Shown here piece by piece: positions 2,425 through 27,293 of a DNA stretch of 64,000 nt. Where the stretch lies: the sequence record MT968995.1, one strand, 5' to 3'. How positions within the stretch are numbered: the first letter of the stretch is position 1; each line of letters opens with the position of its first letter. The notes beneath the pieces are model-generated. The model was not told the DNA's origin, made no database searches, and saw only the letters and a list, made by a program, of their open reading frames with translations. The stretch is from Escherichia phage vB_EcoM_WL-3. The position numbers were made by a program, and so were the translations under genes.

Positions 2425-2460
2425 ATTAATTATACCACATCCTTGTGGTAAAGTAAACTA
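2425..2460 (-). promoter_or_regulatory. early promoter (GTTTAC, ~16-nt spacer, TGGTATAAT) upstream of rIIA.1
   Basis: minus strand reads GTTTACTTTACCACAAGGATGTGGTATAAT; nearly the same motif recurs at 46655-46690. Confidence 0.55.
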
Positions 2461-4278
2461 CTGGCTCATCCATTCTTTACGAAGATCAGCATTATCTCCC
2501 ATAAGCATTTCAAAAAGCTCTTTCCAGTTCTCAGGAAGTTTAACAACGTCATAAACTGGGTTCTGAATCATTTCACGGTATTCAGATTTTTCCAAAGAGC
2601 CAAGTCCCTTAATATAACGGATGCTATGTTTAGGTAGAGCATCTTTGGCACTCTCATATTCAGCGACTGTATAAAACCATTCTTGTTTTTTACCGACCTG
2701 AGCAATGATTACAGGAGTTTTGACAAAGCGAATTCTTCCTTGTTCAAACAGTTCTGGCCAATTACTAAAAAATCCGAGCAGAGAAGGATAAATGCTTCCT
2801 AGACCATCATGGTCGGCATCGGTCATAATTGCAATATTATGATAATTCAAGTTTTCGGCTTTTTCACCAAGAACTAATCCAGTGATTGCGCAAATATCAA
2901 ACAGTTCTTTGTTTTTAAGCATATCAGCATAAGACATACCCCAACTGTTGAGAACTTTACCGCGCAATGGATAACCGCCATGAAGTTCTTTATCACGAAC
3001 ATCAATAAGATATCCGATAGCAGAATCTCCCTCAGTCAAGAAAAGAGTAGTATCAGCATCTTTACCACAAAGATTCGCTTTGATATGTTTATGAACCTTA
3101 GCTTTAGAGGCCTTTTTAGCTGCTTTAGTTTCTGCTGCCTTTTCTGCCGCCAATTTACGAGCCAAGGCAGCTTCAATAATTGGCATTAAAATTGCTTCAT
3201 TATTCAAAATAGCACGTGAAATCTTTTTAGCATCAAGCTGAATATGACTACGGATTTCACCAAATGGAGAAGTCAGACGCTCTTTAGTTTGAGAATCAAA
3301 TCGCATGTTTTTCATATCACGAACAAACATAACGATAGTCAAACATTCTTTAACACGTGCTTTAGTTACATCAATTTTGAACTTGCGTTTGATTTGTGGA
3401 ATAAGGTCTTCACAAATATCATCCATAACACAGTCAATGTGATGGCCACCATTCTTAGTATGAATGTTATTGACGTACGTTAATTGACGAAAACCATCCG
3501 GTGAACGACCAACCGCAATAGAACAGTTTTCTTGTTCTTGAACGATGGTGTGTTCATCATATTGGCGTGCATATTTCTTAAAATTACCCTGAACCTTTTT
3601 ACCATTAAAGGTAAATTGAATATCAGGATAAACTACTGCAAGTGTCTGGAGACGATCTAGTGTAATGTCAAGATAAACTTGAGATAGCTCATTAGTTTCA
3701 AATGACATAAAATCGGGAATGAAAGTAACGCGAGTTCCTTTCCATTTTCCAGGAATATCTTCCCACGATTTATTTTCCATGCCGTTTGAACAACGAACTA
3801 CAATATTATTTTGACCGTCGCCAGTTTCACCGACAAACATCACAGAAAAAATGTTAGTTAAACTAGAACCAACACCATTCATACCACCGGTGACGCGTTC
3901 TTTATCATCACCAAAGTTACCACCTGCTTTTGGAATAGTCCAGGCAGCAACTGGACCAGGAATTTCTTCACCAGTAGGTGTTTTAACCATCGCCTGTGGA
4001 ATACCACGACCGTTATCTTCAACTGTTACTTGATTGTTTTTGATAGTAACATTAATTTTATTTGCGAATTTAAACTTAGTACGAATACCTTCATCTACTG
4101 AGTTATCGATAATTTCATCAATAAGCTTAACAAGACCAGGTACATACTGAACACTTTCCCATTTACCAAACAGAAAGCGCTCATGCATTTCATTAGCAGA
4201 AGAACCAATGTACATGCCGCTACGCTTTTTGATATGTTCAATATCGCTCAGAATTTTAATTTCATTCTTAATCATCAC
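2458..4278 (-). CDS. 39: DNA topoisomerase II large (ATPase, GyrB-like) subunit, unsplit form
   Basis: 606-aa continuous ORF; T4 has this function split into genes 39 and 60; continuous form as reported for T2/T6-like phages (recall). Confidence 0.85.
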   Translation of the reverse strand: MMIKNEIKILSDIEHIKKRSGMYIGSSANEMHERFLFGKWESVQYVPGLVKLIDEIIDNSVDEGIRTKFKFANKINVTIKNNQVTVEDNGRGIPQAMVKTPTGEEIPGPVAAWTIPKAGGNFGDDKERVTGGMNGVGSSLTNIFSVMFVGETGDGQNNIVVRCSNGMENKSWEDIPGKWKGTRVTFIPDFMSFETNELSQVYLDITLDRLQTLAVVYPDIQFTFNGKKVQGNFKKYARQYDEHTIVQEQENCSIAVGRSPDGFRQLTYVNNIHTKNGGHHIDCVMDDICEDLIPQIKRKFKIDVTKARVKECLTIVMFVRDMKNMRFDSQTKERLTSPFGEIRSHIQLDAKKISRAILNNEAILMPIIEAALARKLAAEKAAETKAAKKASKAKVHKHIKANLCGKDADTTLFLTEGDSAIGYLIDVRDKELHGGYPLRGKVLNSWGMSYADMLKNKELFDICAITGLVLGEKAENLNYHNIAIMTDADHDGLGSIYPSLLGFFSNWPELFEQGRIRFVKTPVIIAQVGKKQEWFYTVAEYESAKDALPKHSIRYIKGLGSLEKSEYREMIQNPVYDVVKLPENWKELFEMLMGDNADLRKEWMSQ

Positions 4279-4325: not shown

Positions 4326-4347
4326 CTAAAGGCCCGAAGGCCTTTTA
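4326..4347 (-). terminator. tetraloop hairpin (AAAGGCC-CGAA-GGCCTTT) directly after the lipoprotein gene stop
   Basis: perfect 7-bp GC-rich stem with 4-nt loop, T/A-rich flanks. Confidence 0.5.
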
Positions 4348-4617
4348 TTTAAAACGGATAGTCGAATCCTTGAAGAATAGACCAGAACATACTGTTCCTT
4401 CTACTTTCTGCCCGGTAGGTCCAATAGCACGAAATCCAGTGTGTTGGAAATCATTTTCAGAGCAACCAAACCAATTGTATCCAGTGATTTCAATATTAGT
4501 AAACCCACTTGAAGACAAAACTTTGGTTGCATTATCAGCATCAGTACATCCTACTAAAGATACTGCTAATACTAATGCTGCGATAGAACGATTAACATAT
4601 TTCATAATTTCACTCAA
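4345..4617 (-). CDS. predicted lipoprotein (signal peptide with LVGC lipobox)
   Basis: N-terminus MSEIMKYVNRSIAALVLAVSLVGCTD; occupies the T4 39.1 position. Confidence 0.55.
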   Translation of the reverse strand: MSEIMKYVNRSIAALVLAVSLVGCTDADNATKVLSSSGFTNIEITGYNWFGCSENDFQHTGFRAIGPTGQKVEGTVCSGLFFKDSTIRFK

Positions 4618-17276: not shown

Positions 17277-17570
17277 TTACTCACCTACCACTTCAGCGAT
17301 GATATTTTTGTTATTAAAGTTTTTATCGCAATACAGAACATAATTATACTGCATTACACCACCAGACTTAAGCTGTTTTTGCACTTCAGCTTTCATTTCA
17401 GGACGATCGCGCTCAACGATATTCATAATATCTGCTTCAATTTGGGTTTCAACCTCAGTCTGATCCGCAGTCATAGACCATTCGCACAAATCTTTATCAT
17501 AACCTGCCATAGCAGGCTGAGCAGCACAAGAAGCTAAAGCAAAAATTGTGGCAAAGATAAATTTTTTCAT
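17277..17570 (-). CDS. sp: Spackle periplasmic protein (superinfection exclusion)
   Basis: 97 aa with signal peptide MKKFIFATIFALASCAAQPAMA; size and position as T4 Sp. Confidence 0.75.
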   Translation of the reverse strand: MKKFIFATIFALASCAAQPAMAGYDKDLCEWSMTADQTEVETQIEADIMNIVERDRPEMKAEVQKQLKSGGVMQYNYVLYCDKNFNNKNIIAEVVGE

Positions 17571-21163: not shown

Positions 21164-22006
21164 TTAATCAACTGCTATTGGATGAATAGCATTAAACTTA
21201 TGAAATGCTTCTGATTTTTCTTTACGCGAAACGCACATGCGAAGAACCTTTAATGGCTCGTCTTCTTCACCCAACGATTTTCGTTTTTCAATATTAGAAG
21301 TTTTCCAACGAGCTTGCTCTGGAAACTCTCTATTGATTTGCTCAAGCGCTCTATTATGTTTAGAATTACTACGAATTGAACTGCACCCTCCAGGAGCTTG
21401 TGCTTTTCCAGATACAACCAGATATTTGAACAAGGCCAAATGCGGATAACCTTGATTAATTAAATTGAGAAATGCATACATATCTTCGCACAAATCAATT
21501 TTTCCATACCCAATTTGTTCTGTCGTAAGTTTTCCAAGGTCATACCATGTATTCGTGAATCCATATGAATTTTCACGATAATTACCCCAAGATGAAGTAA
21601 TTTTAAAAATTGGTAGGCGAGCATGACCGTGATAATACCCACAATCCATGGCATCTTCGACGTATTGAATCAATTCATAGAACTGTTCACGAGTCAATTG
21701 ATTGACTTTATCCACACAACGACGATCATCTCTTTTTCGCATTGAACTCATACGAATAGTAGTATCATCGTCAATCATCCAGATTCGTTGACCTGCATAC
21801 ATATCAGTAATTGCTTTACGAGTACCGGCAATTCCATTAACATCATCAGGAATAGTTACAATTTTAGCTTTAGACCCATAGGCATCATAATAAGCTTTTT
21901 CTTCATGTTCACGTACTACGATATGAGGTTCATAATCAGTCGGAAACATATCAAGGGCAGAAACTGCCCCTACACGTTGATAGCTCGGAATTACGAATTG
22001 AATCAT
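21164..22006 (-). CDS. putative glycosyltransferase (DxD motif) in the beta-gt slot
   Basis: 280 aa with IWMIDDDTTI; not T4 beta-gt by sequence recall; position fits the T2/T6 beta-glucosyl-HMC-alpha-glucosyltransferase locus. Confidence 0.5.
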   Translation of the reverse strand: MIQFVIPSYQRVGAVSALDMFPTDYEPHIVVREHEEKAYYDAYGSKAKIVTIPDDVNGIAGTRKAITDMYAGQRIWMIDDDTTIRMSSMRKRDDRRCVDKVNQLTREQFYELIQYVEDAMDCGYYHGHARLPIFKITSSWGNYRENSYGFTNTWYDLGKLTTEQIGYGKIDLCEDMYAFLNLINQGYPHLALFKYLVVSGKAQAPGGCSSIRSNSKHNRALEQINREFPEQARWKTSNIEKRKSLGEEDEPLKVLRMCVSRKEKSEAFHKFNAIHPIAVD

Positions 22007-22644
22007 TTAAGTGCCTTACATTTGTCAAAATGGTATCTTGTCATATTTGGCCCACGTCCTTTTAGTCCGCAATGCGGACATATTTTTTCTATCAAATTAT
22101 GAGGTTTTCCTTTACGATTTTTAGACATCGTTTCTTTAATTATTTTAGCTTTTTCTACGCCAAAAATTTCTTCATAAGTTTTACCAGAATTTTCCTTGGC
22201 TCGATTTATAATTCCATATGCCTGCTCATTTTTACCATACATTGGATTACCTTCGCCTTTCATTCTTTTAGAATGATCAGGACGCTTGATTCCACGAAAG
22301 GCATTTCCGCACTTATATCTTTCTTCTGGAGATAGTTTTTTACCGTACATTCCATTTAATTTGCCTGGAAAACTTCCTCCCCATGCTTCATTCTTTAAAT
22401 TATATGAATCCGGACAATTAGCAGCATCTAAACAAGTTAAAATAATTTCTTCAACCTGTCTAAACATTGGTCCTTCATATAATATTTCTTTATTAAAGAA
22501 TTTTATTCCATATTTCTTTTTAGCATGTTGCCAAACTACACCCGAACCATCATAATTCGGGTTGTGACCATCATGACTTCCTATATACCACTTTTTAGTT
22601 TTAGGATGTTTATACTTATAAACATGTGGCACATTTACTTCCAT
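22003..22644 (-). CDS. GIY-YIG homing endonuclease (Seg-like)
   Basis: 213 aa; N-terminal HVYKY...KWYIGSH GIY-YIG-like motif plus NUMOD-like basic repeats; overlaps both neighbours. Confidence 0.65.
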   Translation of the reverse strand: MEVNVPHVYKYKHPKTKKWYIGSHDGHNPNYDGSGVVWQHAKKKYGIKFFNKEILYEGPMFRQVEEIILTCLDAANCPDSYNLKNEAWGGSFPGKLNGMYGKKLSPEERYKCGNAFRGIKRPDHSKRMKGEGNPMYGKNEQAYGIINRAKENSGKTYEEIFGVEKAKIIKETMSKNRKGKPHNLIEKICPHCGLKGRGPNMTRYHFDKCKALK

Positions 22645-23375
22645 TTTCCAGTATAATCCTTTTTAGCAATATGAGTCTCACCGGTGTTCCACCAATGGTC
22701 AACTAAATAAAACTGATTTTCGTACACATGAAGACTTCCAACGTTCCATATAATAGAACCTGCTTTATATTGCCGCGATGGGTCGCCTGCATTCAAATCA
22801 GATACTAATTTATCTAGTACGTATTTTTGCCAAGCATAATCATTACGATAGCCTGCCCAGCAATCATTGCTTCTCATGCTAACAACCGCATTGACTTTCT
22901 TATCACGAATCAGGTACTGTACTGTATTCGTACACATGAAATCTGACATACCATCTTTATTGTAGTCAAACTGCATGGATGGACGAGTATAAATCATGAT
23001 ACCACGTCGAGAATCAGGATTTTGACCAAGTTCAGCTAAACACATGTCATACTGAGCATAGTTATCTTCTGACCAGATGGCCCAACCATAATTCGAGTTA
23101 ATTTCGCCTTTAAAAGATGCTACCTGCTGCCAAATCTTTGGTGTTTCACCTGGAATATCTTTAACAAACAAACTTTGAGACTTATACCATTCAAGTTCAC
23201 GCTGAATGTATTCATCATTAAGAGCACCAAAAATAAAAGGTTCATCTGCTACAAATGATGCACCAATAATTTCAATAGTTTTAACACCGGTTTTATCAAT
23301 TACGAAATCTTTTTCCTTTAATGCAATTCCCAAATGAAGACGGATTTCTTCAACTGTCATAGAGTCATTAATCAT
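22635..23375 (-). CDS. 42: dCMP hydroxymethylase
   Basis: 246 aa; thymidylate-synthase-like fold; size and position as T4 gp42. Confidence 0.9.
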   Translation of the reverse strand: MINDSMTVEEIRLHLGIALKEKDFVIDKTGVKTIEIIGASFVADEPFIFGALNDEYIQRELEWYKSQSLFVKDIPGETPKIWQQVASFKGEINSNYGWAIWSEDNYAQYDMCLAELGQNPDSRRGIMIYTRPSMQFDYNKDGMSDFMCTNTVQYLIRDKKVNAVVSMRSNDCWAGYRNDYAWQKYVLDKLVSDLNAGDPSRQYKAGSIIWNVGSLHVYENQFYLVDHWWNTGETHIAKKDYTGKWK

Positions 23376-23528
23376 TTAAACCTCAATTGATACATTCATA
23401 TTTAACTTGTAACAGTAATAAACTCCACCCTATAATAAGCGTTGGAATCATACAAGGAACTGTTACGCTATAGTATATACTTATTATAATCATCAAGATT
23501 AAAAGCAATACTGTTATAATTTTGCTTT

Positions 23529-23780
23529 TCATTCCTTCTCTCTGATGATAATTACCTGGTTTGGTTGTGCAGACTTTTTAGTTTCACCCGCAATTGACCA
23601 AATAAATGTAATAAACCAACCAATAATTGACCAGTTAAACAGTAAAGATGTGAAAAAGATTCCTACTGTCGATTTTGACCCACGCATCAAGGCGATAAAC
23701 CATGGAAGCATGTATATAATAATAGCCAACACACCTGAAACTAAAACCATAAAAATTGAACCTGCTACTAAAGTTTCCAT
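23529..23780 (-). CDS. imm: Imm superinfection immunity membrane protein
   Basis: 83 aa, two hydrophobic segments; size and position as T4 Imm. Confidence 0.8.
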   Translation of the reverse strand: METLVAGSIFMVLVSGVLAIIIYMLPWFIALMRGSKSTVGIFFTSLLFNWSIIGWFITFIWSIAGETKKSAQPNQVIIIREKE

Positions 23781-23787
23781 GTTTTCC

Positions 23788-24168
23788 TCACTTAGTCAAA
23801 TTTTTTACACATGAATTATAAGAATTCACTACATACTCCATCGGAGCATTTTTACCAGTACGCCATTGGTAATTATTAGCCCAATTAGCCCAAAGCTCAG
23901 CGCAGTAGTTTTCAATTTTTTCTTCGCGTGTAATCACATCTGAATTACGATATGCTTGTGCAGATTCATCTGGACGAATAGCTTCGTCAAAATTCGCCTG
24001 CATTTGTTCTACTGTCTGTTTTGGAGCCTCTTTATAACACTTGACGTTAGGATTATAAAATTTGCTTGAACAGTTTACAATTTTTCCTACATCAGACTGA
24101 TTTACTACTGGTCCTTGAGCTACACATCCAGTAAGACCCAATGCAATAACCAAAATAGCGATTTTCAT
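23788..24168 (-). CDS. predicted lipoprotein (LTGC lipobox)
   Basis: N-terminus MKIAILVIALGLTGCVAQGP. Confidence 0.55.
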   Translation of the reverse strand: MKIAILVIALGLTGCVAQGPVVNQSDVGKIVNCSSKFYNPNVKCYKEAPKQTVEQMQANFDEAIRPDESAQAYRNSDVITREEKIENYCAELWANWANNYQWRTGKNAPMEYVVNSYNSCVKNLTK

Positions 24169-24178
24169 AATAATTTCC

Positions 24179-24415
24179 TCAAATACAAGTAGTAATTACT
24201 CCAGTAGTGCTTACACAGGTATTACCTAATTGAACACCCAGCGTTCCATTAGTATTCATATGAAGATTATCATCAATTTTTGTTGATACTTTACCATTCA
24301 TGTGAATAATAGTATTAGATTCAATCACATTCTGAGTGTCATTTTCAATATCAATAAATGGAACAACTGCTAATGCAACTAAACACACTGCTAAACAACC
24401 ATAAACAATTTTCAT
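24179..24415 (-). CDS. small secreted/membrane protein (79 aa from internal Met)
   Basis: track ORF extends upstream through the promoter repeat; real start likely MKIVYGCLAVCLVALAVVPF, which has an SD GGAG upstream. Confidence 0.45.
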   Translation of the reverse strand: MKIVYGCLAVCLVALAVVPFIDIENDTQNVIESNTIIHMNGKVSTKIDDNLHMNTNGTLGVQLGNTCVSTTGVITTCI

Positions 24416-24444
24416 TTTATTCTCCAAATCCGTATCAGTTGATA

Positions 24445-24561: not shown

Positions 24562-24584
24562 GAAAAAGGGACCCGGAGGTCCCT
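24562..24584 (-). terminator. rho-independent terminator after gene 43
   Basis: GGGACC-CGGA-GGTCCC stem-loop followed on the minus strand by UUUUUCAU. Confidence 0.65.
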
Positions 24585-24596
24585 AGATTTATTCTA

Positions 24597-27293
24597 TCAG
24601 CCAAACAGGAAGTCTAACGAAGCTTTTTCCTCATAGTCCATACCTGCCGATTCACACATGCCCGCAAGCGGTTTAACAAACGATTTTTGGAACAAAGTTG
24701 AGTAGTCAATCCAAGACAGTACATCAGAACGAATTTCTTTTGGAAGTTCTGTGCCCGACGGCCAAGCAATACACTTGTCACCAAATGGATTTCCCTCACG
24801 TAATGGAAGAACCATTACCTTATTTCCATCCAAAATTGGAGCTACACCTAAACCGCTAACAGCTCGACGATAAGTTAGTACACCACGAATATGGAACGGG
24901 CATTTAAACCCTGGCCAACCTTTATCATCATATTTCGCTATATCGTTCGCGGTTTTTACTTCAGCAATAACTTTATAGTCAAGTTGACGATATTCTTTCT
25001 CAAAGTTCTTATAGTATTCTTGGACAGACTCTTCGCCTTCCTGAAGAATACGACGAATACTTTCTTCGAGAGCTTCTTGTACTGCTTTTGGTGTTGAACT
25101 CTGCTGAGTTTCCATACCCATGATTTTTAGATGTGGTTCAGCAAATCGCTTATCTTCCATATCATAAACGTTCAGAGCATAACGTTTTTTCGCTTTCCAA
25201 AATCCACCAACACCCTTTGAACCAAGTGGAGGGCAAGAAATAGCTTCACGGTCCATATGCATCAGATGCTCGCGGTTATTCATATAATCACATAACTCAC
25301 GATATGCAACATCAATCATAGGTTCCATCTTTTTCTTACCGAACTGATTCATGAATTCAACTAAATCATTTTGTTCTTTAAAGCGGTCAAGACCTACTTT
25401 TTCAATAACTTTATCTACACAGACATATACCGAATCAGTATCACCTGCTGCGATGAAATCTTCACCATCAGTTCCACATACTTTATTCAGATATTCATTA
25501 ATTTTACGAGCAATCCACTGAATACCAACTTGACCAAAAATTGTGATAGCAGTAGCATTTCGCAAATCATAGTAACGGAAATGAATATTACCAAGAGCAC
25601 CATAAAGACTGTTAATAAGAATTTTACGGTTCAGCTGATTTGTGTTAGCAAGTGTAGCAGCTTTTTCACATTCTTCAATCAGACTATTAAGAACAGATTC
25701 GGTGTAATTCGATAATTCGTTTAAGAAATCATCACTGAACTTAACATATCGTTCAACTTCTGGTTTAGTTGAGCAAGTCCCTGCGCCTTTCATAATAATC
25801 TTTTTAATAGCTTCGGCATTCATTTCTTCAGCGAACATTTTCTTTTTCCAATCTTTACGCTGGAAAAATACTTTAGCGATTTCCTTTGGAATGATACCTT
25901 CTTGATGCTTATCATACATCCATCCATTCGGAGAACAAGAATATTCATCACTTGGCTTAGGAGCTGTTCCTGCGATATATTCATGAATTGGATGAACTTT
26001 AAACTGTCCACGAATAGTCTCAGGACTAATGTTAACCTGACGAATAATGCTAGGATACAGAGACGTCAAGTCAAAACTCATAATGTATCGACGGGCAATC
26101 GGTTTAGGTTCAAATACAAATGCACCTGGAAAACTCTGTTTAACGTGCGAACCTTGTTGAGGAATAACCTTATGTTCACCTTTCAGTGAGTTAAAAATAA
26201 TAGCATCCCAAGTTTTAATAGGACTCATTACACCAGAAAAAGGCATTTTAGCGTAATAAGACATACTTAAAACTAGATCAATAAACCCGCGAATTTTATC
26301 AATTGCTTGAACTGATTCTACGTCAATAATGTTATAACTAATGTATCGTTGATGATTAGTCTCACGAAGTTTATTAATAGGACCATCGTACGGCAATTTA
26401 CCTTTTTTGGTTTCGTGCTGAGCAACTGATTCCAAAGAGAATGATGGCAAATTAGTAAATGCGAATTTTTTGTACAAATCTAAATAATCAAGAATAGATA
26501 CGCCATCAATAGAATAAATTTCTTTGCTACCGTACATATTTTGAATTAGTTTAGATTTTACTCGACCGATTGGAGAGAAGCGTTTCATACTACGTTCACC
26601 GAGAACCATTTTAACACGATTCATGATATACGGAACGTCAAATCCCTCAATATTCCAACCGGTAAAAATAGCAGGTCGTTTCTGTTCCCAGAGATTAATA
26701 TATTCCATGAGCATATCACGCTCATTATCGAATGGCATATAAATTACTCGGTCAAGAATTTCTTGAGGAACTTCATCACCACCTTCACAGTCAAGCTTAG
26801 CAGCTAACTTTGCATCCCATTTTGATACTGAACCGTACATTGAATTCAACAAATCAAAGACGTAAAAACGGTCGTCAATTGAATCATAATGAGTGATAGC
26901 ATCAATTTCATATTCTGCTTTCATTGGGTCAGGAAATTTATCACCAGTAACCTCAATGTCACAGTTAGCTACACGAACAAATTTTCGGTCATAAACAATT
27001 TCTGAACCATATGTATCACTGATATAAGCGAGTTTAAAATCGTTCATACCGAGAGCTTCGAGACCGATGTCTTCCATTCGTTTCATCCAATCTCGTGCAT
27101 CTTTCATTGATGGAAATTTTTGAGGAGCACAGTTTTTACCGTAAATGTCTTTGTACTTTGACTCTTCCTTACAATGCCTAAACATAGTCGGAAGATATTC
27201 TACTTCACGAGTACGTTCCTTTCCGTTTTCATCAATATAACGTTCAACAATGTTATTTCCGACTGTTTCGATAGAGATATAAAATTCTTTCAT
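24597..27293 (-). CDS. 43: DNA polymerase (family B)
   Basis: 898 aa; exonuclease and polymerase motifs including YGDTDS; size and position as T4 gp43. Confidence 0.95.
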   Translation of the reverse strand: MKEFYISIETVGNNIVERYIDENGKERTREVEYLPTMFRHCKEESKYKDIYGKNCAPQKFPSMKDARDWMKRMEDIGLEALGMNDFKLAYISDTYGSEIVYDRKFVRVANCDIEVTGDKFPDPMKAEYEIDAITHYDSIDDRFYVFDLLNSMYGSVSKWDAKLAAKLDCEGGDEVPQEILDRVIYMPFDNERDMLMEYINLWEQKRPAIFTGWNIEGFDVPYIMNRVKMVLGERSMKRFSPIGRVKSKLIQNMYGSKEIYSIDGVSILDYLDLYKKFAFTNLPSFSLESVAQHETKKGKLPYDGPINKLRETNHQRYISYNIIDVESVQAIDKIRGFIDLVLSMSYYAKMPFSGVMSPIKTWDAIIFNSLKGEHKVIPQQGSHVKQSFPGAFVFEPKPIARRYIMSFDLTSLYPSIIRQVNISPETIRGQFKVHPIHEYIAGTAPKPSDEYSCSPNGWMYDKHQEGIIPKEIAKVFFQRKDWKKKMFAEEMNAEAIKKIIMKGAGTCSTKPEVERYVKFSDDFLNELSNYTESVLNSLIEECEKAATLANTNQLNRKILINSLYGALGNIHFRYYDLRNATAITIFGQVGIQWIARKINEYLNKVCGTDGEDFIAAGDTDSVYVCVDKVIEKVGLDRFKEQNDLVEFMNQFGKKKMEPMIDVAYRELCDYMNNREHLMHMDREAISCPPLGSKGVGGFWKAKKRYALNVYDMEDKRFAEPHLKIMGMETQQSSTPKAVQEALEESIRRILQEGEESVQEYYKNFEKEYRQLDYKVIAEVKTANDIAKYDDKGWPGFKCPFHIRGVLTYRRAVSGLGVAPILDGNKVMVLPLREGNPFGDKCIAWPSGTELPKEIRSDVLSWIDYSTLFQKSFVKPLAGMCESAGMDYEEKASLDFLFG

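What the first reader, a model, noticed from the sequence alone, without database searches (positions are those of the whole stretch)
23788..24415. Two small exported proteins next to imm
A 126-aa lipoprotein (LTGC lipobox) and a 79-aa signal-peptide protein lie between gene 43 and imm, with a further lipoprotein at 4345-4617. Phage lipoproteins frequently mask receptors or block DNA injection, so these may add to the superinfection-exclusion set (imm, sp).
Basis: inference. Interest (0 to 1): 0.45.

Follow-up and report, generated by a model that had tools for sequence, protein, structure and literature searches.

The report
T4 Imm.1 lipoprotein and variable neighbour
The two small genes are real, exported early proteins of a T4-like phage: one is the already annotated lipoprotein Imm.1, which nearly always sits beside the superinfection-immunity gene imm, and the other is a fast-evolving optional passenger gene; neither has a tested function.

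Summary
The window is a Tequatrovirus (T4-like) genome. On the minus strand, downstream of DNA polymerase gene 43, lie a terminator, an early-type promoter and four tightly packed small envelope-protein genes.

- **ORF-A** (24179-24415): 78 aa, not 79. It has a Sec signal or signal anchor and no lipobox.
- **imm.1** (23788-24168): 126 aa, lipobox LTGC with Cys15. It is 99% identical to T4 Imm.1 and belongs to Pfam DUF5481.
- **imm**, followed by an unannotated 49-aa membrane ORF.

Imm.1 is under very strong purifying selection (pN/pS 0.02). In T4 it is an early RNA and early protein, and it is dispensable for lytic growth. Its homologues lie next to imm in seven Tevenvirinae genera. This holds even where the pair moved next to spackle (Mosigvirus) or the gene order is inverted. 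That supports a role linked to Imm. The link is not obligate: Karamvirus has the lipoprotein without imm, and Imm occurs and protects alone. Imm.1 is 98-99% identical in T2, T4 and T6, which argues against receptor masking.

ORF-A is cargo in a hypervariable slot. The slot is empty in T4 and T6 and holds other genes in T2 and elsewhere. ORF-A is not linked to imm in Dhakavirus.

No fold or family match suggests a mechanism for either protein. These are known genes of unknown function, giving a modest but testable lead.

The parts
24567..24584 (-). Intrinsic-terminator-like hairpin (AGGGACC-TCCG-GGTCCCT followed by TTTTT), 13 nt after the gene 43 stop codon
   Evidence: Conserved in T4. Annotated as a rho-independent terminator in phage SA21RB.
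24450..24478 (-). Sigma-70 / T4-early-type promoter-like site: TTTACA, 17 nt, TACTAT, with TG before the -10 hexamer. It lies upstream of ORF-A
   Evidence: 9 of 12 matches; the number of such sites in the region is not above the shuffled expectation. The same sequence lies upstream of imm.1 in T4. T4 imm.1 RNA is in the early class. Function is inferred.
24179..24415 (-). ORF-A: a 78-aa exported small protein. It has an N-terminal signal peptide or signal anchor, then a predicted beta-rich domain of about 45 residues ending in the conserved LGVQLGNTCVSTTGVITTCI. The Shine-Dalgarno GGAG is at 24422-24425. Its TGA stop overlaps the imm.1 Shine-Dalgarno sequence
   Evidence: phrog_4189, 9e-27; 325 phage records, 78-99% identity; pN/pS 0.40; pLDDT 75-89 for residues 31-78.
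24368..24415 (-). ORF-A signal peptide or signal-anchor region (residues 1-16, MKIVYGCLAVCLVALA, with a possible cut after A16). It contains a 21-nt repeat that is duplicated in-frame in some phages
   Evidence: Neither cleavage nor anchoring has been shown.
23788..24168 (-). imm.1: a 126-aa lipoprotein precursor, 99% identical to T4 Imm.1 (NP_049661, UniProt P18057) and a member of Pfam DUF5481. The mature part has a flexible tether and a helical domain with four Cys
   Evidence: PF17578, 5.4e-72; pN/pS 0.02.
24124..24135 (-). Lipobox codons L12-T13-G14-C15 of Imm.1. Cys15 is the predicted lipid-modified residue. Val at +2 predicts outer-membrane sorting
   Evidence: Sequence read. PROSITE rule. 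T4 has LAGC. Ten of 12 lineages keep a lipobox.
23529..23780 (-). imm: the 83-aa inner-membrane superinfection immunity protein, starting 7 nt after the imm.1 stop
   Evidence: phrog_1039, 3.6e-32; PF14373.
23383..23532 (-). 49-aa hydrophobic ORF (phrog_3610) that overlaps the imm stop by 4 nt (ATGA). It is the probable fourth gene of the unit
   Evidence: 9.4e-26; pN/pS 0.33; present next to imm in phage SP18; intact but unannotated in T4.
4345..4605 (-). gp39.1: an 86-aa predicted lipoprotein (lipobox LVGC, Cys20 counted from the ATG start). This is the 'further lipoprotein' of the finding. It is not linked to the imm unit
   Evidence: phrog_902; 100% identical to T4 gp39.1 over 62 aa; 1070 phage records.

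Best explanation
Downstream of the gene 43 terminator, an early promoter drives a compact unit of four small envelope proteins: ORF-A, Imm.1, Imm and a 49-aa membrane peptide.

**Imm.1.** It is made early and exported by Sec. It is lipid-modified at Cys15. Because it lacks Asp at +2, it is probably carried by Lol to the inner leaflet of the outer membrane. From there a flexible tether (the conserved C-x-x-QG-x-V...VGK segment) and a disulfide-stabilised helical domain hang into the periplasm.

Its most likely job is as an accessory part of the Imm-type protection of the already infected cell against secondarily adsorbing T-even phages. That protection blocks DNA entry and limits envelope damage where the tail tube meets the inner membrane. 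Imm.1 would act from the outer-membrane or periplasmic side while Imm acts in the inner membrane. It would not act by masking a receptor.

**ORF-A.** It is an unrelated, fast-evolving, Sec-exported small beta protein. It occupies a hypervariable cargo slot between gene 43 and imm.1. Its link to imm is positional only.

**Shown versus inferred.** Shown: the genes, the export signals by rule, selection, synteny, and early expression and dispensability in T4. Inferred: lipidation, outer-membrane location, disulfides, and any role in exclusion.
For: - **Identity:** 99% to T4 Imm.1; DUF5481 at 239 bits against a cutoff of 27.
- **Export:** the PROSITE lipobox rule is met. A lipobox is kept in 10 of 12 lineages, and the other two have an AHA| signal-peptidase I site instead. 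No lineage has Asp at +2. The number of mature Cys is always even (2 or 4). Cys33 and Cys44 appear or vanish together.
- **Constraint:** pN/pS is 0.02, comparable to DNA polymerase at 0.01.
- **Linkage to imm:** the lipoprotein and imm are adjacent in seven genera. In Mosigvirus the order is dmd - ORF - imm.1-like - imm - spackle, while the 43-42 interval there holds other genes. The order is inverted in Dhaka- and Gaprivervirus. The pair is also adjacent in Gelderland-, Moon- and Jiaodavirus and in the other contigs retrieved.
- **Operon compactness:** the ORF-A stop overlaps the imm.1 Shine-Dalgarno sequence. There are 7 nt between imm.1 and imm, and an ATGA overlap between imm and the 49-aa ORF.
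- **Expression:** T4 imm.1 is classed early RNA and early protein, the same class as sp (PMC9697503 supplement).
- **Literature gap:** a review states that Imm does not give full immunity alone and needs another membrane protein (PMC9952470).
- **ORF-A as cargo:** T4 differs by exactly 247 bp between two ATGAAAAT repeats. The slot is empty in T6, holds an unrelated ORF in T2, and holds a Frd.3-like ORF in L007. The Dhakavirus homologue sits in the e-lysozyme region. pN/pS is 0.40.
Against: - There is no functional test of Imm.1 anywhere in the searched literature.
- In the CRISPRi-ART screen of T4, imm.1 knock-down is 'Not Fit' (-0.77, p 0.98) while imm knock-down is 'Fit' (1.40, p 0.02). This is not what an obligate partner would give.
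- Imm expressed alone protects cells (PMC12373910).
- Imm homologues occur without any such lipoprotein in Jerseyvirus and Gamaleyavirus.
- Karamvirus keeps the lipoprotein but has no detectable imm.
- Most of the adjacency lies within the generally syntenic 43-42 backbone of T4-like phages. Truly independent support comes from the Mosigvirus relocation and the order inversions only.
- The structure model is weak (mean pLDDT 66), and no fold match suggests a mechanism.
Confidence: 0.4

Rival explanations
1. Imm.1 is a periplasmic or outer-membrane effector that acts independently of Imm. It might inhibit or recruit a host envelope component such as a protease, murein hydrolase, nuclease, Lpp or Tol-Pal, to stabilise the infected cell or tune lysis timing. 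Its place beside imm would only reflect co-regulation as early envelope genes.
For: - Karamvirus has the lipoprotein without imm.
- Imm works and occurs alone.
- The imm.1 and imm knock-down phenotypes differ.
- Very strong purifying selection and near-identity across T2, T4 and T6 fit a conserved host target.
Against: - The pair moved together in Mosigvirus and stayed adjacent through order inversions.
- No similarity to any known inhibitor family or fold was found.
Confidence: 0.3
2. Imm.1 is a receptor-masking exclusion lipoprotein of the Llp (T5) or Cor (phi80, N15) type. It would bind the phage's own outer-membrane receptor and block adsorption.
For: It is a predicted outer-membrane lipoprotein, made early and encoded in a superinfection-exclusion locus. 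Llp and Cor are precedents (PMC9586334, listed; mention of Cor).
Against: - Imm.1 is 98-99% identical in T2, T4, T6 and this phage. By established knowledge these use different receptors (OmpC/LPS, OmpF/FadL, Tsx).
- By established knowledge, T-even exclusion does not block adsorption (restated in PMC6832632).
- The Foldseek search of the PDB found no match with E below 1.
- Two lineages have lost the lipid anchor.
Confidence: 0.07
3. ORF-A plus Imm.1 form a two-component spanin-like pair. A type II inner-membrane protein would be followed by an outer-membrane lipoprotein, and the pair would act in lysis.
For: The gene order and predicted topologies resemble a separated i-spanin/o-spanin pair.
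Against: - ORF-A is absent from T4 and T6 and lies elsewhere in Dhakavirus.
- Its periplasmic part is a predicted beta domain of about 45 residues, not a coiled coil.
- Mature Imm.1 is 111 aa and helical, not short and proline-rich.
- Expression is early, not late.
- By established knowledge, T4 already has the spanins PseT.3 and PseT.2.
Confidence: 0.02
4. ORF-A is a phage-versus-phage or phage-versus-host competition factor under diversifying pressure, and this would explain its rapid change. The alternative is that it is a weakly constrained passenger with little function.
For: - Its non-synonymous divergence is about 20 times that of the flanking genes.
- Identity ranges from 59 to 99% among otherwise near-identical phages.
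- It sits in a slot that takes different cargo.
- Its signal peptide undergoes in-frame 21-nt duplications. In some alleles these create a LAAC lipobox.
Against: - pN/pS stays below 1 (0.30-0.59). This fits relaxed purifying selection equally well.
- No family, fold or literature gives a function.
Confidence: 0.15

Closest known systems
T4 Imm.1 (gene imm.1, NP_049661, UniProt P18057; Pfam DUF5481 / PF17578; phrog_1754)
   Same: The 126-aa ORF is this protein. It is 124/125 identical, in the same position upstream of imm, and carries the same lipobox type.
   Different: The window has LTGC where T4 has LAGC, plus one extra C-terminal Lys. In T4 the gene directly follows the promoter and Shine-Dalgarno sequence that serve ORF-A in this phage.
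T5 Llp and phi80/N15 Cor (superinfection-exclusion outer-membrane lipoproteins that inactivate FhuA)
   Same: A small phage-encoded predicted outer-membrane lipoprotein, made early and encoded beside exclusion genes.
   Different: No sequence or fold similarity was detected. Imm.1 does not vary with receptor usage. T-even exclusion acts after adsorption.
T4 Spackle (gp61.3), a periplasmic inhibitor of the gp5 tail lysozyme
   Same: An early, exported, small, helical, Cys-containing periplasmic protein of the exclusion set. In Mosigvirus its gene directly follows the imm.1-like/imm pair. The signal peptides are alike (MKK...L.SC.AQ).
   Different: Profile comparison aligns only the 18-residue signal peptide. 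There is no homology in the mature domain.
T4 Imm (PF14373), the inner-membrane protein that blocks DNA entry
   Same: Same transcription unit, and conserved neighbour in seven genera.
   Different: Imm is a two-helix integral membrane protein. Imm.1 is a lipid-anchored soluble domain and is unrelated in sequence.
phrog_4189 small proteins of Tequatrovirus and Dhakavirus (for example Shfl2p051, T4-like phage HY01_0043)
   Same: ORF-A is a member (9e-27) and is 98.7% identical to Shfl2p051.
   Different: Some alleles carry 7-aa duplications in the signal peptide that create a lipobox, and one is named 'Lipoprotein' in UniRef. The window allele has no lipobox.

Membership tests
Bacterial-type lipoprotein (signal peptidase II substrate) - Imm.1 | Basic n-region, uncharged h-region, and a lipobox [LVI][ASTVI][GAS]C with Cys at position 15-35 (PROSITE PS51257) | tested here: met
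   K2, ILVIALGLTGC, Cys15. Conserved in 10 of 12 lineages.
Bacterial-type lipoprotein (signal peptidase II substrate) - Imm.1 | Actual diacylglyceryl modification and globomycin-sensitive cleavage | not testable with these tools
   Needs palmitate labelling, globomycin treatment and a C15A mutant.
Bacterial-type lipoprotein - ORF-A (window allele) | Lipobox with Cys at position 15-35 | tested here: not met
   No PS51257 match. Cys7 and Cys11 lie too close to the N-terminus, sit in VYGC and LAVC contexts, and are absent in divergent homologues.
Sec signal peptide / signal anchor - ORF-A | Basic N-terminus, hydrophobic core of at least 10 residues, and small residues at -3/-1 | tested here: met
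   K2; Kyte-Doolittle mean of 3.28 over residues 8-18; A14-L15-A16|V17. Whether it is cleaved or anchored is undecided. SignalP was not available.
Pfam DUF5481 (PF17578) / phrog_1754 | HMM score above the gathering threshold over the full domain | tested here: met
   239.2 bits against a cutoff of 27, residues 22-124 matching profile positions 1-103 of 103. phrog_1754 at 5e-44.
Llp/Cor-type receptor-masking exclusion lipoproteins | Sequence or fold similarity to Llp or Cor | tested here: not met
   No PHROG, Pfam or PADLOC hit. Foldseek against the PDB gave no match with E below 1. The model confidence is only moderate.
Llp/Cor-type receptor-masking exclusion lipoproteins | Specific binding to the phage's own outer-membrane receptor, so that the sequence tracks receptor usage | tested here: not met
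   98-99% identity across T2, T4, T6 and the window phage. The receptor differences come from established knowledge. Binding itself was not tested.
Spackle (phrog_1586), gp5 lysozyme inhibitor | Homology of the mature domain | tested here: not met
   hhalign aligns only signal-peptide residues 1-18.
Two-component spanin (i-spanin plus o-spanin) | An obligatory gene pair, late expression, a coiled-coil i-spanin and a short proline-rich o-spanin | tested here: not met
   ORF-A is absent in T4 and T6. It has a beta-rich domain. Imm.1 is helical with 111 mature residues. Expression is early.
Imm-associated module (proposed here, not an established family) | Lipoprotein gene adjacent to an imm (PF14373 / phrog_1039) gene | tested here: met
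   Adjacent in seven genera and in all four other contigs retrieved. The exception is Karamvirus.

The most novel reading that the evidence does not exclude
Imm.1 is the long-postulated 'other membrane protein' of T-even superinfection immunity. It would be an outer-membrane-tethered periplasmic partner acting with inner-membrane Imm, and perhaps with the unannotated 49-aa peptide. Together they would form a trans-envelope block at the point where the tail tube of a superinfecting phage meets the inner membrane. The conserved tether motif C-x-x-QG-x-V...VGK would be the contact site.
Probability: 0.25. Interest if true: 0.6.

Novelty: already known. Interest (0 to 1): 0.3.

Why it matters
How Imm stops DNA entry has been unclear since 1989, and reviews still say it needs an unidentified membrane partner. 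Imm.1 is a strongly conserved, early-expressed lipoprotein that stays beside imm through rearrangements across seven genera. That gives one cheap, specific experiment: test imm with and without imm.1, and with and without the 49-aa ORF. If the result is positive, it would add a third component to the classic T-even exclusion system and show a trans-envelope mode of exclusion. If negative, Imm.1 remains one of the most constrained T4 proteins without a function. ORF-A marks a recombination hot-spot slot downstream of gene 43 that could be used to survey accessory genes.

Tried and rejected
- **Sequence-family searches.** Pfam, PHROGs, NCBIfam and PADLOC gave only families of unknown function, or chance-level hits, for both ORFs.
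- **Deep homology.** An HMMER scan of 1.84 billion representative proteins found only six representatives for Imm.1, all T4-like. Word-indexed searches found only close relatives.
- **Homology to other window proteins.** Imm.1 was tested against Spackle and gp39.1. Only the signal peptides align. No paralogues of either ORF exist in the window.
- **Literature.** There is no paper on DUF5481, and no functional study of imm.1. The primary papers by Lu and Henning are not held in the library. The accessory-gene screen of Silas et al. did not include either protein.
- **Corrected reading.** I first took the Frd.3-like context (L007) as a third independent genomic location for the pair. That contig starts with the 3' end of gene 43, so it is the same slot.
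- **Failed scan.** The search for related loci with the broad alignment failed because no conserved stretch was available. The narrower alignment returned only seven loci.
- **Rejected readings.** The spanin reading and the longer upstream start for ORF-A (114-141 aa) were rejected. The longer ORF would run through the promoter. Homologues and the T4 deletion junction start at the ATG at 24415.

Full report
**What the window is.** The region matches more than 500 Tequatrovirus (T4-like) genomes at 90-98% nucleotide identity. All genes discussed here are on the minus strand. In transcription order they are:

- gene 43, DNA polymerase (24597-27293);
- a terminator-like hairpin (24567-24584);
- a promoter-like site, TTTACA, 17 nt, TACTAT, with an upstream TG (24478-24450);
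- a 78-aa ORF, here called ORF-A (24179-24415);
- a 126-aa ORF (23788-24168);
- imm (23529-23780);
- a 49-aa hydrophobic ORF (23383-23532);
- gene 42 (22635-23375).

The unit is compact. The ORF-A stop codon TGA lies inside the Shine-Dalgarno sequence (TGAGG) of the next gene. Seven bases separate the 126-aa ORF from imm. The 49-aa ORF overlaps the imm stop by ATGA.

**Check of the observation.** The 126-aa ORF starts MKIAILVIALGLTGC. It meets the PROSITE PS51257 lipoprotein rule, with Cys15 and Val at +2. ORF-A is 237 nt with its stop codon, so it encodes 78 residues, not 79. It has a basic N-terminus, a very hydrophobic core and an A-L-A|V site, but no lipobox. Its probable start is the ATG at 4605.

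Across all six frames of the window, 601 ATG-started candidates of at least 45 aa were tested against the lipoprotein rule. Four match: Imm.1, gp39.1, Spackle and one spurious ORF. The signal is therefore not a by-product of base composition.

**Identity of the 126-aa ORF.** It is T4 Imm.1. It is 124/125 identical to NP_049661, where the lipobox reads LAGC. It belongs to Pfam DUF5481 with 239 bits against a cutoff of 27, and to phrog_1754. tblastn finds it in 656 phage records: 501 at 95% identity or more, and 155 at about 33% (Mosigvirus). An exhaustive HMMER scan of 1.84 billion representative proteins found only six representatives, all T4-like.

Across seven Tequatroviruses its pN/pS is 0.02. 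DNA polymerase scores 0.01 and imm 0.09. Two published T4 data sets add expression and fitness evidence:

- In the time-resolved omics study, imm.1 is classed as early RNA and early protein, the same class as sp (PMC9697503 supplement).
- In the CRISPRi-ART screen, imm.1 knock-down has no fitness cost (-0.77, p 0.98). imm knock-down scores as 'Fit' (1.40, p 0.02) (PMC11879866 supplement).

Imm.1 is thus a real, expressed, highly constrained but dispensable early protein. Its function is listed as unknown.

**Anatomy of the Imm.1 family.** I compared 12 lineage representatives.

- Ten keep a lipobox. Two have replaced the Cys with an AHA| signal-peptidase I site, so the anchor is dispensable but export is not.
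- None has Asp at +2. By the established E. coli Lol rule this predicts outer-membrane sorting.
- The number of Cys residues in the mature protein is always 2 or 4. Cys89 and Cys120 are invariant. Cys33 and Cys44 appear or disappear together. This fits disulfides formed in the periplasm.
- The best-conserved stretch across genera lies directly after the lipid Cys: C-x-x-QG(D/E)-x-V...VGK.

AlphaFold gives a confident C-terminal helical hairpin (residues 81-125, pLDDT about 90) holding Cys89 and Cys120. The N-terminal half is poorly defined, and the mean pLDDT is 66. Foldseek against the PDB and against BFVD found nothing beyond the protein's own family. A profile search of PDB sequences found nothing either.

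**Linkage to imm.** A phrog_1754 or phrog_18344 lipoprotein lies next to an imm (PF14373 / phrog_1039) gene in each of these cases:

- Tequatrovirus, including the window, T2, T4 and T6.
- Four divergent contigs from public sequencing runs, 33-46% identical.
- Gelderlandvirus phage Melville and Moonvirus phage Moon.
- Jiaodavirus (hhalign probability 96.7% for the N-terminal 60 residues).
- Dhakavirus and Gaprivervirus, where the order is inverted to imm then lipoprotein.
- Mosigvirus MM02. There the pair has left the 43-42 interval, which holds other genes. It lies between dmd and spackle, in the order dmd - ORF - imm.1-like - imm - sp.

Most of this adjacency sits on the generally syntenic T4-like backbone. 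The relocation and the inversions are the informative cases. They show that the pair stays together when its surroundings change.

There are counter-examples:

- Karamvirus has the lipoprotein but no recognisable imm.
- Imm homologues stand alone in Jerseyvirus and Gamaleyavirus.
- Imm expressed alone protects cells in an accessory-gene screen (PMC12373910).

The link is therefore strong but not obligate.

**Receptor masking is unlikely.** Imm.1 is 98-99% identical in T2, T4, T6 and this phage. By established knowledge these phages use different receptors. T-even exclusion also leaves adsorption intact (PMC6832632). A receptor-specific mask of the Llp or Cor type does not fit these facts.

**ORF-A.** It belongs to phrog_4189 and has no Pfam family. 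It occurs in 325 phage records at 78-99% protein identity, and down to 59% in contigs from sequencing runs.

T4 lacks it. The T4 sequence differs by exactly 247 bp bounded by two ATGAAAAT repeats, which are the start codons of ORF-A and imm.1. As a result, T4 imm.1 inherits the promoter and Shine-Dalgarno sequence of ORF-A. The same slot is:

- empty in T6;
- occupied by an unrelated 83-aa ORF in T2;
- occupied by a Frd.3-like ORF in a contig from a sequencing run.

In Dhakavirus the ORF-A homologue lies in the e-lysozyme / nudE region, far from imm.

**Most likely mechanism.** Imm.1 is exported early, lipid-anchored (probably to the outer membrane), and presents a disulfide-stabilised helical domain and a conserved tether motif to the periplasm. 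I give about 0.4 probability that it acts as an accessory to Imm in protecting the infected cell from secondarily adsorbing phages. Reviews still state that Imm needs another membrane protein for full effect (PMC9952470), and Imm.1 is an obvious candidate for that partner.

The main rival, at about 0.3, is an Imm-independent periplasmic effector acting on a conserved host target. The export signals (by rule), selection, synteny, expression class and dispensability are shown. Lipidation, location, disulfides and any role in exclusion are inferred.

**Novelty.** Both genes are already annotated. Imm.1 is listed as a 'hypothetical predicted membrane protein' in T4, and its homologue in phage Melville is called a 'putative conserved lipoprotein'. 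The new element here is the cross-genus linkage analysis and the separation of Imm.1, which is linked and constrained, from ORF-A, which is cargo. Interest is modest.

Noticed in passing
window 23383-23532 (-); T4 locus L002 2228-2377 (-): A 49-aa double-hydrophobic ORF (phrog_3610) overlaps the imm stop by ATGA. It is intact but unannotated in the T4 RefSeq record. It also follows imm in Gaprivervirus SP18 and in contig L007. Its pN/pS is 0.33. It is probably a real small membrane protein of the imm unit.
   Followed up: partly
window 4345-4605 (-); T4 locus L020 3399-3671: gp39.1 is a widely conserved predicted lipoprotein, found in 1070 phage records across many T4-like genera. The T4 RefSeq record annotates only 65 aa because the signal-peptide part is out of frame there, whereas strain T4T matches all 86 aa. 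This is either a frameshift or a sequencing difference in the reference.
   Followed up: partly
window 17277-17570 (-): Spackle (97 aa) also satisfies the PROSITE lipobox rule (FALASC, Cys15), and its signal peptide resembles that of Imm.1. Whether any Spackle is lipid-modified appears not to have been considered. It also shows that the lipobox rule alone can over-call.
   Followed up: no
window 22003-22644 (-) and 22635-23375 (-): A 213-aa homing-endonuclease-like ORF (phrog_314; weak NUMOD3 match) overlaps the 3' end of gene 42. gp42 of this phage carries two divergent patches (SNDCWAGYRND and VYENQFYLV, against SNDVVFGFRND and VYSRHFYLV in T4, T2-like phages and others). This could be a homing-site signature.
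   Followed up: no
window 24340-24400 (-), ORF-A signal peptide: A 21-nt repeat (TTAGCAGT..., spaced 21 nt) lies in the hydrophobic core. Other phages (ZN18, HY01 and others) carry one or two extra in-frame copies. These lengthen the signal peptide and in some cases create a canonical LAAC lipobox.
   Followed up: partly
window 24168 and 24415; T4 locus L002 about 3014: T4 and T6 lack ORF-A. In T4 the difference is an exact 247-bp stretch between two ATGAAAAT direct repeats, which are the two start codons. This looks like microhomology-mediated deletion. The slot between gene 43 and imm.1 holds at least four different states among T-even phages.
   Followed up: yes
window 2458-4278 (-): The topoisomerase large subunit is one 606-aa ORF, gp39 and gp60 fused. 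It has no mobA / 60.1 insertion and no translational bypass segment, unlike T4.
   Followed up: no
T4 RefSeq NC_000866 and several other records: Imm.1 is named 'iduronate sulfatase' in some RefSeq-derived annotations. No family search supports this name. It is probably a propagated annotation error.
   Followed up: partly
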